DNA of 64,000 bases from Saprospiraceae bacterium (GTDB lineage: Bacteria; Bacteroidota; Bacteroidia; Chitinophagales; Saprospiraceae), in assembly GCA_043748345.1 (NCBI GenBank), contig JAYTNJ010000086.1, positions 7,259 to 71,258 on the forward strand. The letters run 5' to 3'. Below, in pieces: positions 268-5,616 of this stretch. Position numbers and translations under genes: made by a program. Within the stretch, counting starts at the first letter, position 1, and each line of letters opens with the position of its first letter. Below the pieces are notes generated by a model. That model searched no databases. It saw nothing but the letters and a program-made list of their open reading frames with translations, and was not told where the DNA came from.

Positions 268-3198
268 TTAGTTTGCAGGAATATAAATATCAAATGATGC
301 TCCTTTTTTTAACTCACCCTTTGCAGTGATAAGACCATTGTGATTTTCAACTATTTTTTTAACTATGGCAAGTCCAATGCCAGTACCTGCATATATTTCT
401 TTACCGTGCAGTTTTTGAAATACACCAAAAATACGTTCACTGAAATGGGGTTCGAAACCGATACCATTGTCCTTAACTGTGATATGAAAATAATCTTTTC
501 CTTCTGTAAGTTTTTCATTATTGAGTTTGTTGCCTTTTACAATTCTGTTCGTTATTATTATATGTGATGGTATTTCTGGATTGGAAAACTTGAGTGCGTT
601 ACTTACTAGATTGTACATGAGTTGTCTAAACTGAAAAGCTATAAGGTTTTGAGAGCCAAGTTCGCCGATTTCAATGGTTGCGTTTTTTTCAAAGATAGTG
701 TCCTTTAGTTCGATTTTGACTTCTTCAATAATTTGATTGAGTTCTGTTTTTTCAAATTTTAGTTCTGTGGTAGCAACGCGTGAAAAAGCGAGTAAATCAT
801 CAATAAGTTGCTGCATTCTTCCTGCTGCTAACTGCATTCTTTCAAAATTATACTTTCCATTTTCAGAGAGGTTATTATTCTCGTTTTCGAGAATGATGCT
901 AACGAAAGTCTGTATTTTTCTTAATGGCTCCTGTAAATCATGGCTTGATATATAAGTAAATGCCATTAACTCCTTGTTAGCAATAATTAATTCTTCTGCA
1001 CGCATTTCCTTTTCATTATTTTGGAATTCAAGTTCTTTGTTGGCAATAACTAACTCGGCTGCCCGTTTTTCTTTTTCATTGTTTTGGAATGCAAGTTCTT
1101 TGTTGGCAATAACCAACTCGGCTGCCCGTTTTTCCTTTTCATCATTTTGGAATGCAAGTTCTTTATTAGCTACTCCTAACTCAGTTGCTCGTTTTTCTTT
1201 TTCATGATTTTGGAAAGCAAGTTCTTTATTGGCTACTCCTAACTCAGTTGCTCGTTTTTCTTTTTCATCATTTTGGAAGGCAAGTTCTTTGTTGGCAATA
1301 CCCAACTCGATTGCCCGTTTTTCCTTTTCATTATTTTGGAAAGCAAGCTCAATATTTGCTGCTGTTAATTGCTCTTCAGATTCTTTTCGTTTGGTAATAT
1401 CTACCCGTATTGCGAGATATTGATAAGGTTTCCCCTGTTCATTAATAAAGGGAACTATAGTAGTATCCACCCAATAAAAGGTGCCATCTTTAGCTTTGTT
1501 TTTTATTTCTCCTTTCCATATTTTTCCTTTGGCTATTGTTACCCATAAATCACGTATAAACTCTTTGGGATGATAACCAGAATTAAGTATTTGGTGGTCT
1601 TGACCGATCAGCTCGTCTTCGCTGTATTTTGATATTTTACAAAAATTGCTATTTGCTTTTCTGATAATCCCTTTTTGGTCTGTAAGTGCAATTATGGTTG
1701 TTTCATCCAAAGCATCTTTATAATCGGACACTTCCTTTAGACTATCCTTCAAGAGTCTTTCCGATTGATTAAGTTCCTGATTGGCAATACCTAATTCTGC
1801 CGCCCGTTTTTCTTTTTCGTCATTTTGGAATGCAAGTTCCTTATTTGCAATGCCTAACTCTGAGGCTCGTTTTTCTTTTTCGTCATTTTGAAATTCAAGT
1901 TCCTTATTTGCGATACCTAACTCTGCTGCACGTTTTTCTTTTTCGTCATTTTGAAATTCAAGTTCCTTATTTGCGATGCCTAATTCTGCGGCACGTTTTT
2001 CTTTTTCGTCATTTTGAAATTCAAGTTCCTTATTTGCGATGCCTAATTCAGCCGCACGCTTTTCCTTTTCATCATTTTGAAAAGCAAGCTCTTTGTTAGC
2101 AACGCCTAACTCTGTTGCTCTCTTTTCCTTCTCATCATTTTGAAATGCGAGTTCTTTGTTAGCAACGCCTAACTCTGTTGCTCTCTTTTCCTTCTCATCA
2201 TTTTGGAATGCGAGTTCTTTGTTGGCAATAGCTAATTCAGCCGCACGTTTTTCTTTTTCATCGTTTTGGAATGCAAGTTCTTTGTTGGCAATTGCTAATT
2301 CAGCTGCCCTTTTTTCTTTTTCATCGTTTTGGAATGCGAGTTCTTTGTTGGCAATCGCTAATTCGGCCGCCCGTTTTTCTTTTTCATCGTTTTGAAAAGC
2401 GAGCTCTTTGTTTGCAACTCGTGTATCTTTTGCCCATTTTTGCTCTGTAACATCTCTGGCTGCAGCAAAAACCCCAATGACATTCCCTTTGCTATCCTTA
2501 AACACGGATGCATTGTATAAGACATCCGTTAAATTACCATTTTTGTGTTTAATAGTTAAAGGATAATCAGATACGAAACCTTTCTCAAAAACTTGCTCAT
2601 AACCTTCTTGCGCTTTTTTGGGTTCTGTAAAATAATTTGAGAAATCGGTGTCGATAAGATTTTCGCGTGAAATGCCAGTAACTTTTATGGATGCCTCGTT
2701 GACGTCAGTTATCTTTCCTGAGGCGCTAATGGTCACAAGTGGGTCTAAGCTTGCCTCGATCAGACATCGGGCATACTGAGATGCTTGTTTTTGTGATGTA
2801 ACATCACGAATTGATGCGAAAACTCCCAGAATATTGCCCCTGTCGTCCTTATATCCTGAAGCATTGTATAAAACGTCTGTTAGCTTTCCAGTTTCATGTT
2901 TTACAGTAAGATGATAATTTACTATAAAGCCTTTTTGAAGGACTTCTAAATAGCCTTTATGAGCTTTTTGGGGCTCTGTAAAATAGGTTGCGAAGTCGGT
3001 ATTTAGGAGATTTTCTCTTTCGATGCCTGTAATACTTATCAATGCATCATTTACATCCATTACCTTCCCATCGCTATTTATTGTAACGAGTGGGTCCAAA
3101 CTTGCCTCAATTAAAGTTCTGGCATAATTGGTTTTCTGAATCTCCATTTCCATTTTATTTCTGAAGGAATTATAAAAATATTTAATATTAATGTTCAT
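268..3198 (-). CDS. Multi-PAS sensor histidine kinase (PAS-PAS-[repeat array]-PAS-[repeat array]-HisKA-HATPase)
   Basis: 976-aa ORF. Two near-duplicate PAS modules (LIEASLDPLVTI...DVLYNAS...GVFA..RDVT) and a third PAS (DELIGQDHQILNSGYHP...WVDTTIVP). H-box FTYISSHDLQEPL. HATPase_c boxes (NALKFS, DNGIGF, GTGIGLAIVKKIV). ATGA start/stop overlap with the upstream receiver gene. Confidence 0.92.
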   Translation of the reverse strand: MNINIKYFYNSFRNKMEMEIQKTNYARTLIEASLDPLVTINSDGKVMDVNDALISITGIERENLLNTDFATYFTEPQKAHKGYLEVLQKGFIVNYHLTVKHETGKLTDVLYNASGYKDDRGNILGVFASIRDVTSQKQASQYARCLIEASLDPLVTISASGKITDVNEASIKVTGISRENLIDTDFSNYFTEPKKAQEGYEQVFEKGFVSDYPLTIKHKNGNLTDVLYNASVFKDSKGNVIGVFAAARDVTEQKWAKDTRVANKELAFQNDEKEKRAAELAIANKELAFQNDEKEKRAAELAIANKELAFQNDEKEKRAAELAIANKELAFQNDEKEKRATELGVANKELAFQNDEKEKRATELGVANKELAFQNDEKEKRAAELGIANKELEFQNDEKEKRAAELGIANKELEFQNDEKEKRAAELGIANKELEFQNDEKEKRASELGIANKELAFQNDEKEKRAAELGIANQELNQSERLLKDSLKEVSDYKDALDETTIIALTDQKGIIRKANSNFCKISKYSEDELIGQDHQILNSGYHPKEFIRDLWVTIAKGKIWKGEIKNKAKDGTFYWVDTTIVPFINEQGKPYQYLAIRVDITKRKESEEQLTAANIELAFQNNEKEKRAIELGIANKELAFQNDEKEKRATELGVANKELAFQNHEKEKRATELGVANKELAFQNDEKEKRAAELVIANKELAFQNNEKEKRAAELVIANKELEFQNNEKEMRAEELIIANKELMAFTYISSHDLQEPLRKIQTFVSIILENENNNLSENGKYNFERMQLAAGRMQQLIDDLLAFSRVATTELKFEKTELNQIIEEVKIELKDTIFEKNATIEIGELGSQNLIAFQFRQLMYNLVSNALKFSNPEIPSHIIITNRIVKGNKLNNEKLTEGKDYFHITVKDNGIGFEPHFSERIFGVFQKLHGKEIYAGTGIGLAIVKKIVENHNGLITAKGELKKGASFDIYIPAN
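966..1365 (-). repeat. In-frame 60-bp tandem repeat array 2 (~6.7 units), same unit family
   Basis: Six full 20-aa units (ANIELAFQNNEKEKRAIELGI ... ANKELEFQNNEKEMRAEELII) plus a final ANKEL that runs straight into the HisKA H-box helix. Confidence 0.95.
1786..2415 (-). repeat. In-frame 60-bp tandem repeat array 1 (~10.5 units) encoding ANKELAFQNDEKEKRAAELGI
   Basis: A head-to-tail 60-bp periodicity is directly visible. It translates to 10 full 20-aa units plus a partial ANQELNQSE unit, lying between PAS2 and PAS3 of the kinase. Confidence 0.95.
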
Positions 3199-3668
3199 TT
3201 TTCTAATTTGATCACAAAATTTTCTTCTTTCGGTTGAGTAATATTTCCATTATTGTCAGTAGGAAGTGTTGTTGACATTAAACCAAGTGTTTGGTGAATT
3301 ATTTTTTTAAATTGTGCAAATTCAGAGGGTTTTCGAATGAAATATTGTGCTCCATGCTGATAAAGTTGGGACACCATCCCTTGTTCAAAGGAAGTGGAGT
3401 AAATGACTACAGGGAGTTGTTTTAATTTTTCATTACATTTTATTTCTGATAAACATTCAAAACCGTTTTTACGCGGCATATTTAAATCGAGAAATAGAAC
3501 GTGAGGCAGTTTATTGGTTTCATTAGTAAGGTATTGCATTAATTGTTCCCCGTCATGGACGGCTTTAAAATTTCCGGGTAGTAGCAATTCTTTCACTGCT
3601 TGATTAAAAAACACACAATCATCAATGTCGTCATCTGCAAGTAGGATATTGAGTTGATTTAAATTCAT
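3195..3668 (-). CDS. Stand-alone response regulator receiver protein (CheY-like, no output domain)
   Basis: LLADDDIDDC acidic pocket, phospho-acceptor Asp in FLDLNMPRKNG, conserved T/S (YSTS) and Lys (IRKP). 157 aa, so there is no room for an output domain. Confidence 0.9.
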   Translation of the reverse strand: MNLNQLNILLADDDIDDCVFFNQAVKELLLPGNFKAVHDGEQLMQYLTNETNKLPHVLFLDLNMPRKNGFECLSEIKCNEKLKQLPVVIYSTSFEQGMVSQLYQHGAQYFIRKPSEFAQFKKIIHQTLGLMSTTLPTDNNGNITQPKEENFVIKLEK

Positions 3669-3692
3669 GTGTAAAAATTTTATTATAATTCG

Positions 3693-4160
3693 CTAGTATG
3701 AAGACTGTTTAGTATTTTCTGCATTAAGGATATATTTTAATGGTTTGTTTGTAAATATTTTTTCTAAGGCTAATGGAATTGCATGATGGATGACCTGTTT
3801 GAGTTGTGCAAAATCACTTGGTTTGTGAATGTAAACATGTGCCCCACTCTTGAAAAGCATGTTTATAGTGTCCCACGAGTTGGATGTTGAAAACATTATT
3901 ACGGAAAGTTCTTTAAACAGGTTATTTTGTCTTATTTCTTTCAAACATTCTAAACCATTTTTACGCGGCATATTGATGTCAAGAAATAGAAAAGTAGGAA
4001 GATGCTCTGAATTTTCAAGCAGATAACTCATTAGTTGTTCCCCATCATTCACTATAGCAAGTTGCGATGATACTGCTACTTCTTTCAATGCTTCTTTGAA
4101 AAAATAACAGTCGTCAGCATCGTCATCAGCAAGTAATACATTAAGATTTTTATAAGTCAT
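3693..4160 (-). CDS. Stand-alone response regulator receiver protein (paralogue)
   Basis: LLADDDADDC, FLDINMPRKNG, FSTS, IHKP. Collinear with the neighbouring receiver. Confidence 0.9.
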   Translation of the reverse strand: MTYKNLNVLLADDDADDCYFFKEALKEVAVSSQLAIVNDGEQLMSYLLENSEHLPTFLFLDINMPRKNGLECLKEIRQNNLFKELSVIMFSTSNSWDTINMLFKSGAHVYIHKPSDFAQLKQVIHHAIPLALEKIFTNKPLKYILNAENTKQSSY

Positions 4161-4228
4161 AAATTCTAAGTTTTATTGATTAAAATATTAAAATATTTTA
4201 AGATGTTTTGATTGTCCGATGACAAATT

Positions 4229-4678
4229 TCATTCATCTCTTTTTAATGATTTATTTGCTATAACTGCGATAAGAGCCTGGTGAATGCTATCTTTAAACTG
4301 TTCAATATCAGCTAGTTTTCGAATGTATTTCTGTGCCCCGATATTTAATAGGGTATTAGTCAAACTTTGCTCATAATTGCTGTTTTGTCCAAAAGATATA
4401 GTAAATACAATTACATTAAGGCTTTTTAGTCTTTCATCTTCTTTTATTTCGTTTAAGCATTCAAATCCGGTTTTTTTTGGCATACTTAAATCAAGAAAGA
4501 GAATATCTGGAAGATTATTCAAATTTTTCTCCAAATAATTCATAAGTGCCTCTCCATCATAAACAGTTGTAAGATGTGTTGAAAGTGGTATTTCCTTTAA
4601 AGCTTTATTAAAGAAAAAACGGTCATCAGTATCATCTTCAGCAAGAAGGATTTGAAGCGGGGGTTGCAAATGATTCAT
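4229..4678 (-). CDS. Stand-alone response regulator receiver protein (more divergent paralogue)
   Basis: LLAEDDTDDR, FLDLSMPKKTG, IRKL. Same architecture but a diverged C-terminal half. Confidence 0.85.
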   Translation of the reverse strand: MNHLQPPLQILLAEDDTDDRFFFNKALKEIPLSTHLTTVYDGEALMNYLEKNLNNLPDILFLDLSMPKKTGFECLNEIKEDERLKSLNVIVFTISFGQNSNYEQSLTNTLLNIGAQKYIRKLADIEQFKDSIHQALIAVIANKSLKRDE

Positions 4679-5531
4679 AAAATCTAAAATTGATATTCTT
4701 AAAAACTATTTACAAAGTGGTTATGTAGCATAAAAGTGATTTATAATATTTTATTTTAATCATAGCGATCAATTTCTGCAATGAGAACTCATACGCCAAC
4801 GCCAGTTTGAACTAATAAATCAGGCGAAAGTACTAATCCTTATGCCTTATGAGATTGCACAACTATTGCAAAAAGTTACATTATTCACACTTTTAAGCGT
4901 TGCAACTTATGTTTTAAGAAGAAAGTATTGATTTTCCTCATTGGAAATTTAGTATTTGGTAGATAAAAATAAATTTAAACTTATAGTTTTTTTAAAGACT
5001 ATTTGAAAGAGATCAAAACTCTGGAACCGATAAACCAAGGGCGAGTGGTATTATCCTATCTTTTTTTGTTAACCATTTTGCGTTTACTCATGTATATATT
5101 AAGATTTACACACCGCAAGTTTATGTAAGCACATTTGTCGCATTGACATCGAGGTTAAGAATTTATTTTGCATCAAAATAGATTTCAAAATTTCCTGTCA
5201 AACCACTTTATGGTGCAAATATCGAAAGGCAATGGGGCTGAACAAAAAAGTAAAACGACAATTTAGATAGCTTTAGGTGAGTGTACAGGAGAGAAACGAG
5301 GGTGCACCAACTATGAAGCTTAGTAAATATGAAACCCCTTAAAAATGGTACACCAATTTTAGTTTTAGGTCTGAACTGAGAGACACATCTCGCAGAGTGG
5401 TGTAAAATTAATGGGATTAACTACTTTCATGGTTTACTCATTCAGCTATGAAGCCAAGATGACTTAATTAGCATGTTGCAGTTCATAGTCAGAAGCAATA
5501 AAATCGTAATAACAATTGAAGGGGAAAAGGT

Positions 5532-5596
5532 CTAGTGCTTTATCCAGATAAAGAACTTAATGAAATGTGGTTCTTTATCTGAACAGAGAGCACTAG
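5532..5596 (-). terminator. Long imperfect hairpin downstream of the TonB-dependent receptor gene
   Basis: ctagtgct..cagataaagaac (5532-5556) pairs with gttctttatctg..agcactag (5570-5596), giving 8-bp and 12-bp stems around an internal loop. It starts 20 nt after the stop codon. The trailing U-run on the minus strand is short (tttt). Confidence 0.4.
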
Positions 5597-5616
5597 TATT
5601 GTTTAAGTCCTACTCC

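What the first reader, a model, noticed from the sequence alone, without database searches (positions are those of the whole stretch)
966..2415. Histidine kinase whose inter-domain signalling helices are built from about 17 copies of a 60-bp in-frame tandem repeat
**Seen in sequence**
- Two arrays of the same 20-aa unit (ANKELAFQNDEKEKRAAELGI) are present.
- About 10.5 units lie between PAS2 and PAS3. About 6.7 units lie between PAS3 and the H-box helix (the last ANKEL runs directly into MAFTYISSHDLQEPL).
- Neighbouring units share private variants (AAELAI x3, ATELGV x2, ELEF..AAELGI x3, AAELVI x2). This is the signature of stepwise local duplication.

**Established knowledge**
PAS-to-HisKA linkers are coiled-coil signalling helices, and their length and helical phase set kinase output.

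**Inference**
- Each unit adds 20 residues, one short of three heptads. Copy-number change would therefore alter both the length (~3 nm per unit) and the phase of the rod.
- The high DNA identity makes the locus prone to slipped-strand or recombinational expansion and contraction, and also prone to assembly collapse.
- Single copies of this FQNEEKEKRAAEL-like motif are, to my recollection, common in Bacteroidota PAS kinases. The extreme amplification is the unusual part.
Basis: partly seen in the sequence, partly recalled or inferred. Interest (0 to 1): 0.6.

Follow-up and report, generated by a model that had tools for sequence, protein, structure and literature searches.

The report
Kinase with 21-residue repeat helical rods
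A soluble bacterial sensor kinase has two very long predicted helical connectors built from 16 copies of a 21-residue (three-heptad) unit, so gaining or losing copies changes the connector's length but not its helical phase, and near-identical strains do differ by whole copies.

Summary
The repeat is real, but the unit was miscounted. It is 63 bp / 21 aa, exactly three heptads, not 60 bp / 20 aa.

The gene (window 268-3198, minus strand, 976 aa) reads PAS-PAS-[10 units]-PAS-[6 units]-HisKA-HATPase. It sits in an uncultured Saprospiraceae genome, behind three stand-alone receiver genes.

- **Phase:** About 99% of motif spacings in relatives are multiples of 7. The last unit sits a fixed 28 residues from the phospho-acceptor His.
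- **Rarity:** large arrays are normal for this motif (up to 32 units; about 1,550 protein clusters, mostly Bacteroidota). No Pfam, NCBIfam, PDB or literature description was found.
- **Earlier notes:** the scan already noted this repeat on other DNA (e1-3055919, e1-3222773, e1-4332712).
- **Variability:** two other metagenome assemblies with almost identical flanks carry 9+5 and 11+6 units, each allele with unit sequence of its own. Orthologues carry 5+7, 5+10 and 5+9.
- **Selection:** units are about 80% identical in DNA, with synonymous sites near saturation (dN/dS about 0.05).

The two-stranded coiled-coil reading is inferred. Hydrophobicity lacks the usual 3.5-residue periodicity.

The parts
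268..3198 (-). Whole gene: a soluble 976-aa sensor histidine kinase, PAS-PAS-[10x21 aa]-PAS-[6x21 aa]-HisKA-HATPase_c. No hydrophobic N-terminal segment is evident by eye.
   Evidence: ORF and translation. Pfam hits to PAS_9, PAS, PAS_4, HisKA and HATPase_c, all above their cut-offs.
2800..3120 (-). PAS1 (aa 27-133).
   Evidence: Pfam PF00989 best stretch 27-133. 74 of 114 residues are identical to PAS2.
2437..2757 (-). PAS2 (aa 148-254). It ends in RDVTEQKWAKDTRV, which leads into array A.
   Evidence: Pfam PF08448 best stretch 148-254. The distance from the PAS end to the first repeat motif clusters at 19-21 residues in 40 of 60 cases among relatives.
1786..2415 (-). Array A: 10 full 63-bp / 21-aa units (aa 262-471).
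   Evidence: TRF period 63, 10.1 copies. Unit table and DNA difference matrix.
1723..1785 (-). Degenerate eleventh unit (aa 472-492, ANQELNQSERLLKDSLKEVSD). Only its first five residues keep the repeat. It forms the helical lead-in to PAS3.
   Evidence: 38-43 of 63 nt differ from the other units. It lies inside model helix 251-494. It is conserved in orthologues.
1390..1695 (-). PAS3 (aa 502-603, PAS_9/PAS_3 type).
   Evidence: Pfam PF13426 best stretch 502-603 and PF08447 514-597.
982..1359 (-). Array B: 6 full 63-bp / 21-aa units (aa 614-739).
   Evidence: TRF period 63, 5.9 copies. Unit table.
967..981 (-). Partial seventh unit 'ANKEL' (aa 740-744), which runs straight into the H-box helix.
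   Evidence: The distance from the last repeat Phe to the His is 28 residues in 78 of 85 relatives.
775..960 (-). HisKA / DHp (aa 747-808). The phospho-acceptor His753 is at window 940-942.
   Evidence: Pfam PF00512. H753 is invariant in the 28-sequence alignment.
274..633 (-). HATPase_c catalytic domain (aa 856-975).
   Evidence: Pfam PF02518, 67.8 bits.
3195..4678 (-). Three tandem stand-alone receiver genes (3195-3668, 3693-4160, 4229-4678) directly upstream on the same strand. The last overlaps the kinase start by 4 nt.
   Evidence: ORFs. All three are called PF00072 Response_reg in the identical DNA of L001 and L002.

Best explanation
**What it is (shown).** The gene encodes a cytoplasmic multi-PAS sensor histidine kinase. 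Its two inter-domain connectors are made of tandem copies of a strongly conserved 21-residue unit, consensus A-N-K-E-L-A-F-Q-N-[DE]-E-K-E-K-R-A-A-E-L-x-I. That unit is three diverged heptads: ANKELAF / QNDEKEK / RAAELxI.

**What the arrays form (inferred).** Each array is one long continuous alpha-helix, about 36 nm for PAS2-to-PAS3 and about 22 nm for PAS3-to-DHp. Each runs in register out of a PAS C-terminal helix and into the next PAS N-cap helix or DHp helix 1. In the kinase dimer they most likely form parallel two-stranded rods with a weak polar core. One register that fits is Asn2/Asn9/Ala16 at 'a' and Leu5/Lys12/Leu19 at 'd'. Intra-helical Glu/Asp to Lys/Arg pairs would stiffen the helices.

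**How it evolves (shown).** Units are gained and lost as whole 63-bp steps, presumably by slippage or unequal recombination between neighbouring units. Arrays therefore differ between almost identical strains and between orthologues.

**Why that is tolerated (inferred).** A unit is exactly 3 x 7 residues. Each step changes rod length by about 3.1 nm but leaves the heptad phase between sensor and kinase untouched. This would explain why copy-number drift survives while the amino-acid sequence stays under strong purifying selection. The change is in length, not an on/off switch.
For: **Unit and layout**
- Period 63 bp / 21 aa.
- Domain order from Pfam.

**Helix continuity**
- AlphaFold2 monomer model: uninterrupted helices 251-494 and 602-748.

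**Heptad phase**
- Spacing between successive motifs is a multiple of 7 in 754 of 756 cases in 79 genome loci.
- It is a multiple of 7 in 988 of 991 cases in the 149 best library hits.
- The off-21 spacings are whole-heptad events: 28 is a duplicated EKEKRAA and 14 is a deleted heptad.
- The distance from the last repeat Phe to the H-box His is 28 residues in 78 of 85 cases.
- The joint into the next PAS is precise: '...AELIIAN|YARSLIEAS'.

**Selection**
- Between-unit dN is 0.07 and dS 1.29.
- Over 728 distinct units, at least 90% identity holds at positions the search pattern did not constrain: A1, N2, E4, L5, K14, A16, E18 and L19.

**Whole-unit turnover**
- Contigs L001 and L002 match the window at all 3,000 nt compared upstream and all 714 nt of the 3' coding part. 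They carry 11+6 and 9+5 units against 10+6, and each allele has array sequence of its own.
- A second orthologue group keeps constant 247-aa and 237-aa flanks around 21, 18, 11, 8 and 8 units. P0009 and P0011 are identical at 481 of 484 flank residues yet carry 21 and 18 units.
- Adjacent units are more alike than distant ones.

**Established knowledge**
- In PAS/LOV kinases, activity depends on linker length with a seven-residue period. Linkers of 7n and 7n+1 residues give opposite signal responses (Moglich review, PMC6798134, read).
Against: - The hydrophobic pattern is not that of a canonical coiled coil. Power at period 3.5 is 4.6 against a shuffle mean of 11.8.
- Hydrophobic residues sit in three consecutive heptad columns (L-A-F and L-x-I). 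This gives two seams about 200 degrees apart: L5/L19 and F7/I21. The conserved F7/I21 seam has no role in a simple two-stranded model.
- The AlphaFold2 model is a monomer with low confidence in the repeats (pLDDT 40-65, pTM 0.30). Oligomeric state and register are not shown.
- All three alleles come from metagenome assemblies and reads could not be examined. Part of the copy-number difference could be assembler behaviour.
- No experiment links rod length to kinase output.
Confidence: 0.68

Rival explanations
1. The copy numbers, here and in the two other alleles, are assembly artefacts. The real gene has one fixed and possibly different number of units. The apparent polymorphism comes from collapse or mis-joining of a repeat in short-read metagenome assemblies.
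For: - The own genome is fragmented into 428 contigs, so it is probably a short-read bin.
- L002 is a k141 MEGAHIT-style contig.
- The units missing from L002 (A7, B3) are those most like a neighbour, 3 nt apart.
- The window's A2-A3 junction could be produced from an L001-like array by a path through a 45-nt identical stretch.
Against: - The longest exact inter-unit repeat is 59 nt. That is shorter than the final k-mers such assemblers usually use and shorter than reads, so the array should be resolvable.
- Each allele holds array sequence absent from the others: the window's A7 3' end, L001's two extra units with 8 differences from any window unit, and the window's B3 His codon. Collapse cannot create these.
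- Whole-unit differences recur in an independent orthologue group.
- Arrays of 8-14 units occur in isolate genomes, in a chromosome-level record, and in contigs whose names suggest long-read assembly.
Confidence: 0.15
2. The arrays are a selected tuning device, not merely tolerated. Rod length, or the marginal stability of its weak Asn/Lys-containing core, sets kinase gain, threshold or temperature response. Unit gain and loss would then give populations heritable, quickly reversible variation in signalling.
For: - Unit indels greatly outpace point changes. There are 2-3 indel events against 1 substitution between L001 and the window in the roughly 4.9 kb compared outside the arrays.
- Every position of the unit is conserved well beyond what a spacer needs.
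- In BvgS the balance between stability and dynamics of the coiled-coil linker regulates kinase activity (title and abstract of PMC4810494, listed).
- Several hits come from samples whose names suggest cold habitats: glacier-fed stream, palsa and bog contigs.
Against: - No functional data exist.
- The two array lengths vary independently, with no conserved total: 16, 14, 17, 12, 15 and 14 units. This looks like drift.
- Most units are old at synonymous sites, so the locus is not a fast switch overall.
- Habitat bias of the databases was not controlled.
Confidence: 0.15
3. The rods are not two-stranded coiled coils. Either they are stable single alpha-helices acting as passive spacers, or the second conserved hydrophobic seam (F7/I21) drives four-helix or higher-order bundling. 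Bundling could occur between dimers, or between arrays A and B of one chain.
For: - There is no 3.5-residue hydrophobic periodicity, and there are two opposite hydrophobic seams.
- The central heptad QNDEKEK-R is fully polar, with i to i+4 acid-base pairs visible in the sequence.
- Repeat confidence in the monomer model is low.
Against: - A single helix with no partner would not need spacings in multiples of 7, yet about 99% of spacings are.
- Only 9 of 21 residues are charged and 4 conserved positions carry large hydrophobic residues. Stable single helices are, to my knowledge, usually more charged than this.
- Pairing of A with B is unlikely. Their lengths vary independently (10/6, 5/7, 5/10, 5/9), and many relatives have a single array.
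Confidence: 0.17

Closest known systems
Coiled-coil linkers between PAS/LOV sensor domains and the DHp of sensor histidine kinases (YF1/FixL-type; Moglich review PMC6798134)
   Same: - A helical connector runs from the PAS C-terminus into DHp helix 1.
- Lengths are constrained to multiples of seven residues.
   Different: - I recall known linkers as a few heptads of non-repetitive sequence.
- Here the connector is 6-10 tandem copies of one conserved 21-residue unit, and up to 32 copies in relatives.
- It spans 126-210 residues and varies by whole units between strains.
- Its hydrophobic pattern is non-canonical.
Signalling helix (S-helix) of Anantharaman, Balaji and Aravind 2006 (PMC1592074)
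   Same: - A conserved helical module sits between sensor and output domains.
- Both have polar residues (Asn, Arg) at or near core positions.
   Different: - The S-helix is a single segment of about 40 residues (five heptads) with an 'ERT' signature in the central heptad.
- This unit is 21 residues, has no ERT (it reads E-K-R-A), and occurs in tandem arrays.
Poly-HAMP arrays (Protein Sci 2026, PMC13446029, listed)
   Same: Both concatenate one helical signalling module into a long rod between input and output domains.
   Different: - HAMP is a helix-connector-helix unit (about 50 residues, from memory) that forms a four-helix bundle.
- No HAMP match was found here.
- This unit is a plain 21-residue stretch of helix.
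The 21-residue Bacteroidota rod repeat noted earlier by this scan on other DNA (e1-3055919, e1-3222773, e1-4332712)
   Same: - Same period (21 aa / 63 bp), same phylum and the same size of family. Those notes give about 1,500 clusters and I found 1,551.
- Those notes also found no published description.
   Different: - Those cases had a single array as the only input region, or kinase-less DHp proteins.
- This kinase has two arrays flanking an internal PAS domain.
- It also has near-identical alleles that differ by whole units.
- I could not compare sequences directly, because the notes withhold them.
Size-variable repeat blocks in coiled-coil surface proteins such as streptococcal M proteins (from memory)
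   Same: In-frame repeat blocks within a coiled coil change in number by intragenic recombination and yield length variants between strains.
   Different: - M proteins are surface fibrils under immune selection.
- This is a cytoplasmic signalling enzyme, and the rod lies on the signal path between sensor and catalytic domains.

Membership tests
Sensor histidine kinase (HisKA + HATPase_c) | HisKA/DHp domain with a phospho-acceptor His in an H-box | tested here: met
   PF00512 at 35.7 bits against a cut-off of 26.9. SSH753DLQEPL is present, and H753 is invariant in the 28-sequence alignment.
Sensor histidine kinase (HisKA + HATPase_c) | HATPase_c catalytic domain | tested here: met
   PF02518 at 67.8 bits against a cut-off of 26.4, aa 856-975. 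D910, N911 and the GxGxG-type glycines 912/914 and 938/940/942 are invariant in the alignment.
PAS domain | Match to PAS family profiles above the curated cut-off | tested here: met
   Three stretches each for PF13426, PF00989 and PF08448. TIGR00229 gives 158.8 bits.
Canonical left-handed (7/2) two-stranded coiled coil | Lengths and insertions in whole heptads | tested here: met
   754 of 756 and 988 of 991 spacings are multiples of 7. Heptad duplications and deletions occur.
Canonical left-handed (7/2) two-stranded coiled coil | Hydrophobic residues at a/d, giving 3.5-residue periodicity | tested here: not met
   Power at period 3.5 is 4.6 against a shuffle mean of 11.8. Hydrophobic residues fall in heptad columns 5-7.
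Canonical left-handed (7/2) two-stranded coiled coil | Parallel in-register dimer | not testable with these tools
   Only monomer prediction is available. The model shows long helices with low confidence.
S-helix (PMC1592074) | A single segment of about 40 residues (five heptads) with an ERT signature in the central heptad | tested here: not met
   The unit is 21 residues, is tandemly repeated, and has no ERT in the consensus.
Poly-HAMP array | Tandem HAMP domains | tested here: not met
   No HAMP family appears among the Pfam hits at E up to 0.1.
Phase-variable contingency locus (simple-sequence-repeat on/off switch) | Repeat changes shift the reading frame or promoter spacing, in near-perfect DNA repeats | tested here: not met
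   The unit is 63 bp, so every change is in-frame. Mean unit identity is 80%, and all alleles seen are intact ORFs.
Undescribed 21-residue 'ANKELAFQNxEKEKRAAELxI' rod repeat of Bacteroidota signalling proteins | Period of 21 aa with the consensus motif, in tandem, next to PAS or DHp domains | tested here: met
   16 units match the consensus built from 728 distinct units. 1,551 library clusters match at E up to 0.001.

The most novel reading that the evidence does not exclude
The 21-residue arrays are an evolvable length and stability dial on the signal path of cytoplasmic kinases. Because each unit is phase-neutral, populations can change rod length (about 3 nm per step, up to about 100 nm in relatives) without breaking the kinase. 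Rod length, or melting of the weak Asn/Lys core, would then set signalling gain, threshold or temperature response. The conserved second hydrophobic seam (F7/I21) could mediate lateral bundling of kinase rods into higher-order assemblies.
Probability: 0.15. Interest if true: 0.75.

Novelty: new variant of a known kind. Interest (0 to 1): 0.5.

Why it matters
How a conformational signal travels along a helical linker from sensor to kinase is still debated. Engineered kinases show that one residue more or less can invert the response.

This family offers connectors of 100-670 residues built from one phase-neutral unit. Relatives form a ready-made copy-number series: 5 to 32 units, and 9+5, 10+6 and 11+6 in near-identical strains. 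That makes it possible to test directly whether, and how far, signals pass along very long helical rods.

There are two practical points.
- The repeat is not modelled in Pfam or NCBIfam.
- It produces above-threshold false matches to PF24081 (PH_SLA1) and PF22165.

For this window taken alone, the result is a correction. The unit is three heptads, and large arrays are normal for the motif.

Tried and rejected
- **Literature by sequence:** text searches for the motif (FQNEEKEKRAAEL and five shorter forms) found no paper.
- **Literature by words:** '21-residue repeat' with 'histidine kinase' found nothing. Repeat number, in-frame, tandem repeats and sensor kinase gave nothing relevant.
- **Solved structures:** the only PDB sequence match to array A was a designed helical repeat protein at E = 0.0037, which I take to be a composition match.
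- **Family libraries:** Pfam and NCBIfam scans of the array alone gave only spurious hits.
- **Structure:** the AlphaFold2 monomer model shows only helix continuity, with low confidence in the repeats. I therefore ran no fold search on it. I left the second folding job unused, because a monomer cannot show oligomeric state.
- **Same-genus orthologues:** only 2 of 17 other species in the genus carry the repeat, and in different architectures. Orthologue comparisons therefore relied on metagenome proteins.
- **Arrays A and B pairing as an antiparallel hairpin:** rejected as the general model, because their lengths vary independently and many relatives have one array.
- **Plus-strand ORFs inside the arrays (64-89 aa):** dismissed as by-products of stop-free repeats, given the strong purifying selection on the minus-strand frame.
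- **Earlier notes by sequence:** the look-up returned nothing. The word search did find them.
Full report
**1. What is there**

Window 268-3198 on the minus strand is one 976-aa ORF. Pfam places three PAS domains (about aa 27-133, 148-254 and 502-603), HisKA (747-808) and HATPase_c (856-975), all above their curated cut-offs. I saw no membrane segment by eye, so I read it as a soluble kinase.

Tandem Repeats Finder reports two arrays, both with period 63 bp:
- 1784-2417: 10.1 copies, 88% matches.
- 974-1347: 5.9 copies, 86% matches.

In protein terms, 'AN[KQI]EL' recurs every 21 residues:
- Array A has ten full units, aa 262-471, then a degenerate ANQEL lead-in to PAS3.
- Array B has six full units, aa 614-739, then ANKEL running into MAFTYISSH753DLQEPL.

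The unit length is wrong. It is 21 aa / 63 bp, and the quoted unit itself has 21 letters.

**2. DNA of the units**

- Units differ at 2-18 of 63 positions, for a mean identity of 80.0%.
- Adjacent units are closer (87.2%) than non-adjacent units of the same array (79.5%) or units of different arrays (78.8%). None of 10,000 permutations reached the observed adjacency. This confirms local stepwise duplication.
- Most differences are synonymous: 929 synonymous against 326 non-synonymous codon differences. The Nei-Gojobori estimates are dN 0.07 and dS 1.29.
- The array as a whole is therefore old and its peptide strongly constrained. Only a few neighbour pairs (A4/A5, A7-A9, B2/B3) are recent copies.
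- The longest exact inter-unit match is 59 nt in array A and 37 nt in array B.

**3. Three heptads, in phase**

The unit splits into three diverged heptads: ANKELAF / QNDEKEK / RAAELxI. Several results show that heptad phase is kept.
- In 79 related genome loci, successive motifs are spaced by 21 (678 times), 42, 63, 28, 49, 56 or 70 residues. Only two spacings are not multiples of 7.
- In the 149 best hits from the 1.84-billion-protein library, 988 of 991 spacings are multiples of 7.
- The spacings off 21 are whole-heptad events. A spacing of 28 is a duplicated EKEKRAA, and 14 is a deleted heptad.
- The last repeat Phe lies 28 residues before the H-box His in 78 of 85 cases.
- Where an array leads into a PAS domain of the YARSLIEAS type, the joint is exact: '...AELIIAN|YARSLIEAS'.

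In PAS/LOV kinases, activity depends on linker length with a seven-residue period, and one extra residue can invert the response (PMC6798134). A 21-residue step is therefore the phase-neutral one.

**4. Structure**

An AlphaFold2 monomer model, built on a 28-sequence alignment, gives uninterrupted helices at 251-494 and 602-748. Confidence in the repeats is low, with pLDDT 40-65, and pTM is 0.30. At about 0.15 nm per residue these helices would be about 36 nm and 22 nm long.

The oligomeric state is not shown. The kinase context suggests a parallel dimer. One plausible register puts N2/N9/A16 at 'a' and L5/K12/L19 at 'd'.

The pattern is not canonical.
- Hydrophobic power at period 3.5 is below the shuffle mean, 4.6 against 11.8.
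- Hydrophobic residues occupy three consecutive heptad columns.
- A second conserved seam, F7/I21, lies roughly opposite the Leu seam and remains unexplained.
- Almost every position is conserved across 728 distinct units, including positions the search pattern did not constrain.

**5. How common it is**

- A three-unit query finds 1,551 clusters at E up to 0.001 and 457 at E up to 1e-30, among 1.84 billion 50%-identity representatives.
- The top 149 have a median of 7 units and up to 19 by the motif count.
- Among full-length relatives, uninterrupted arrays of 18, 20, 21 and 32 units occur.
- At least 578 stretches in species-representative genomes encode relatives. The 80 best are Chitinophagaceae, Saprospiraceae, Flavobacterium, Cytophagales, Sphingobacteriia, Bacteroidales and Prolixibacteraceae, plus Ignavibacteriota and Kapaibacterium.
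- Arrays are present in isolates: Flavobacterium xinjiangense 12 units, F. algoritolerans 9, F. xanthum 8.
- They are also present in a chromosome-level record (OY781961.1, 10 units) and in contigs whose names suggest long-read assembly.
- The distribution is patchy. The repeat was found in 13 of 400 other sampled genomes of the phylum (10 of 180 genera, the own genus included) and in 2 of 17 other species of the own genus.
- It occurs in only this one gene of the own genome.

Large arrays are therefore normal for this motif. This kinase lies in the upper part of the range but is not extreme.

No Pfam, NCBIfam or PDB entry and no paper in the searchable library describes the repeat. Earlier notes of this scan had already met what appears to be the same repeat on other DNA (e1-3055919, e1-3222773, e1-4332712). 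Their count of about 1,500 clusters agrees with mine.

**6. Copy-number variation**

The 90%-identity cluster of this protein holds a 934-aa member and a 997-aa member. Their contigs (L002 and L001, from two other metagenome samples) match the window at all 3,000 nt compared upstream and all 714 nt of the 3' coding part. The other non-repeat parts differ by 1 nt (L001) and 7 nt (L002). Beyond that they differ by whole units:
- L002 lacks units A7 and B3.
- L001 lacks A7 and has two extra units between A2 and A3. These extra units differ at 8 positions from any window unit.
- Each allele holds k-mers inside the arrays that the others lack. Collapse alone cannot explain the differences.
- The longest exact repeat (59 nt) is shorter than usual final assembly k-mers.

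More distant orthologues carry 5+7, 5+10 and 5+9 units.

An independent orthologue group (PAS-PAS-array-kinase) keeps flanks of exactly 247 and 237 aa around 21, 18, 11, 8 and 8 units. P0009 and P0011 are identical at 481 of 484 flank residues yet have 21 and 18 units.

**7. Context**

- Three stand-alone receiver genes lie directly upstream on the same strand. The last overlaps the kinase start by 4 nt.
- A TonB-dependent receptor gene lies further upstream.
- The rpoB gene of the genome is 95% identical to that of Saprospiraceae bacterium UBA7687. I therefore take the host to be an uncultured Saprospiraceae.
- The genome is 4.18 Mb in 428 contigs, with 36% G+C.

**8. Verdict**

The best reading is a phase-neutral, three-heptad helical rod repeat whose copy number drifts by whole units while its sequence is strongly conserved.

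It is a new variant of the known coiled-coil linker theme and is apparently undescribed in the literature. It is not unique to this gene and has already been seen by this scan.

Open points:
- the oligomeric state and register of the rods;
- the role of the F7/I21 seam;
- whether rod length matters for signalling;
- confirmation of the copy numbers from reads.

Noticed in passing
window 2437-3120 (PAS1 and PAS2); proteins P0007 and P0013: The PAS module also changes in copy number. PAS1 and PAS2 here share 74 of 114 residues. In orthologue P0007 the two N-terminal PAS modules are almost identical by eye. P0013, otherwise near-identical to P0007, has only one.
   Followed up: partly
window 982-2415 (both arrays): The repeat gives above-threshold false Pfam matches. 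PF24081 (PH_SLA1) scores 43.8 bits against a cut-off of 27, and PF22165 scores 28.2 against 26, on array A alone. PF24081 also appears in the precomputed Pfam lists of many repeat-bearing relatives. This is an annotation pitfall.
   Followed up: yes
window 3195-4678: Three paralogous receiver-only genes sit in tandem directly upstream of the kinase, and the last overlaps its start by 4 nt. The arrangement is identical in L001 and L002. Which receiver the kinase serves is unknown.
   Followed up: partly
window 974-2395, plus strand: Five plus-strand ORFs of 64-89 aa lie inside the arrays. They look like by-products of stop-free repeats on the antisense strand, not genes.
   Followed up: partly
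relatives P0048, P0053, P0056, P0098, P0130 and others: Within arrays of relatives, off-21 spacings are whole-heptad events. 28-residue units carry a duplicated EKEKRAA, and 14-residue units have lost the heptad between the two 'EL' pairs.
   Followed up: yes
L074 (Saprospiraceae MAG contig DASRXQ010000002.1): Three repeat-bearing ORFs lie within about 12 kb of one contig. Their arrays span about 19, 10 and 2 motif-defined units, flanked by many degenerate units. Some genomes in the phylum sample also hold three such loci, for example G411, G176 and G335.
   Followed up: no
window 4679-5616: No ORF of at least 60 aa (to 5000) or at least 100 aa (beyond) was listed between the receiver/kinase operon and the TonB-dependent receptor gene. 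I did not examine it.
   Followed up: no
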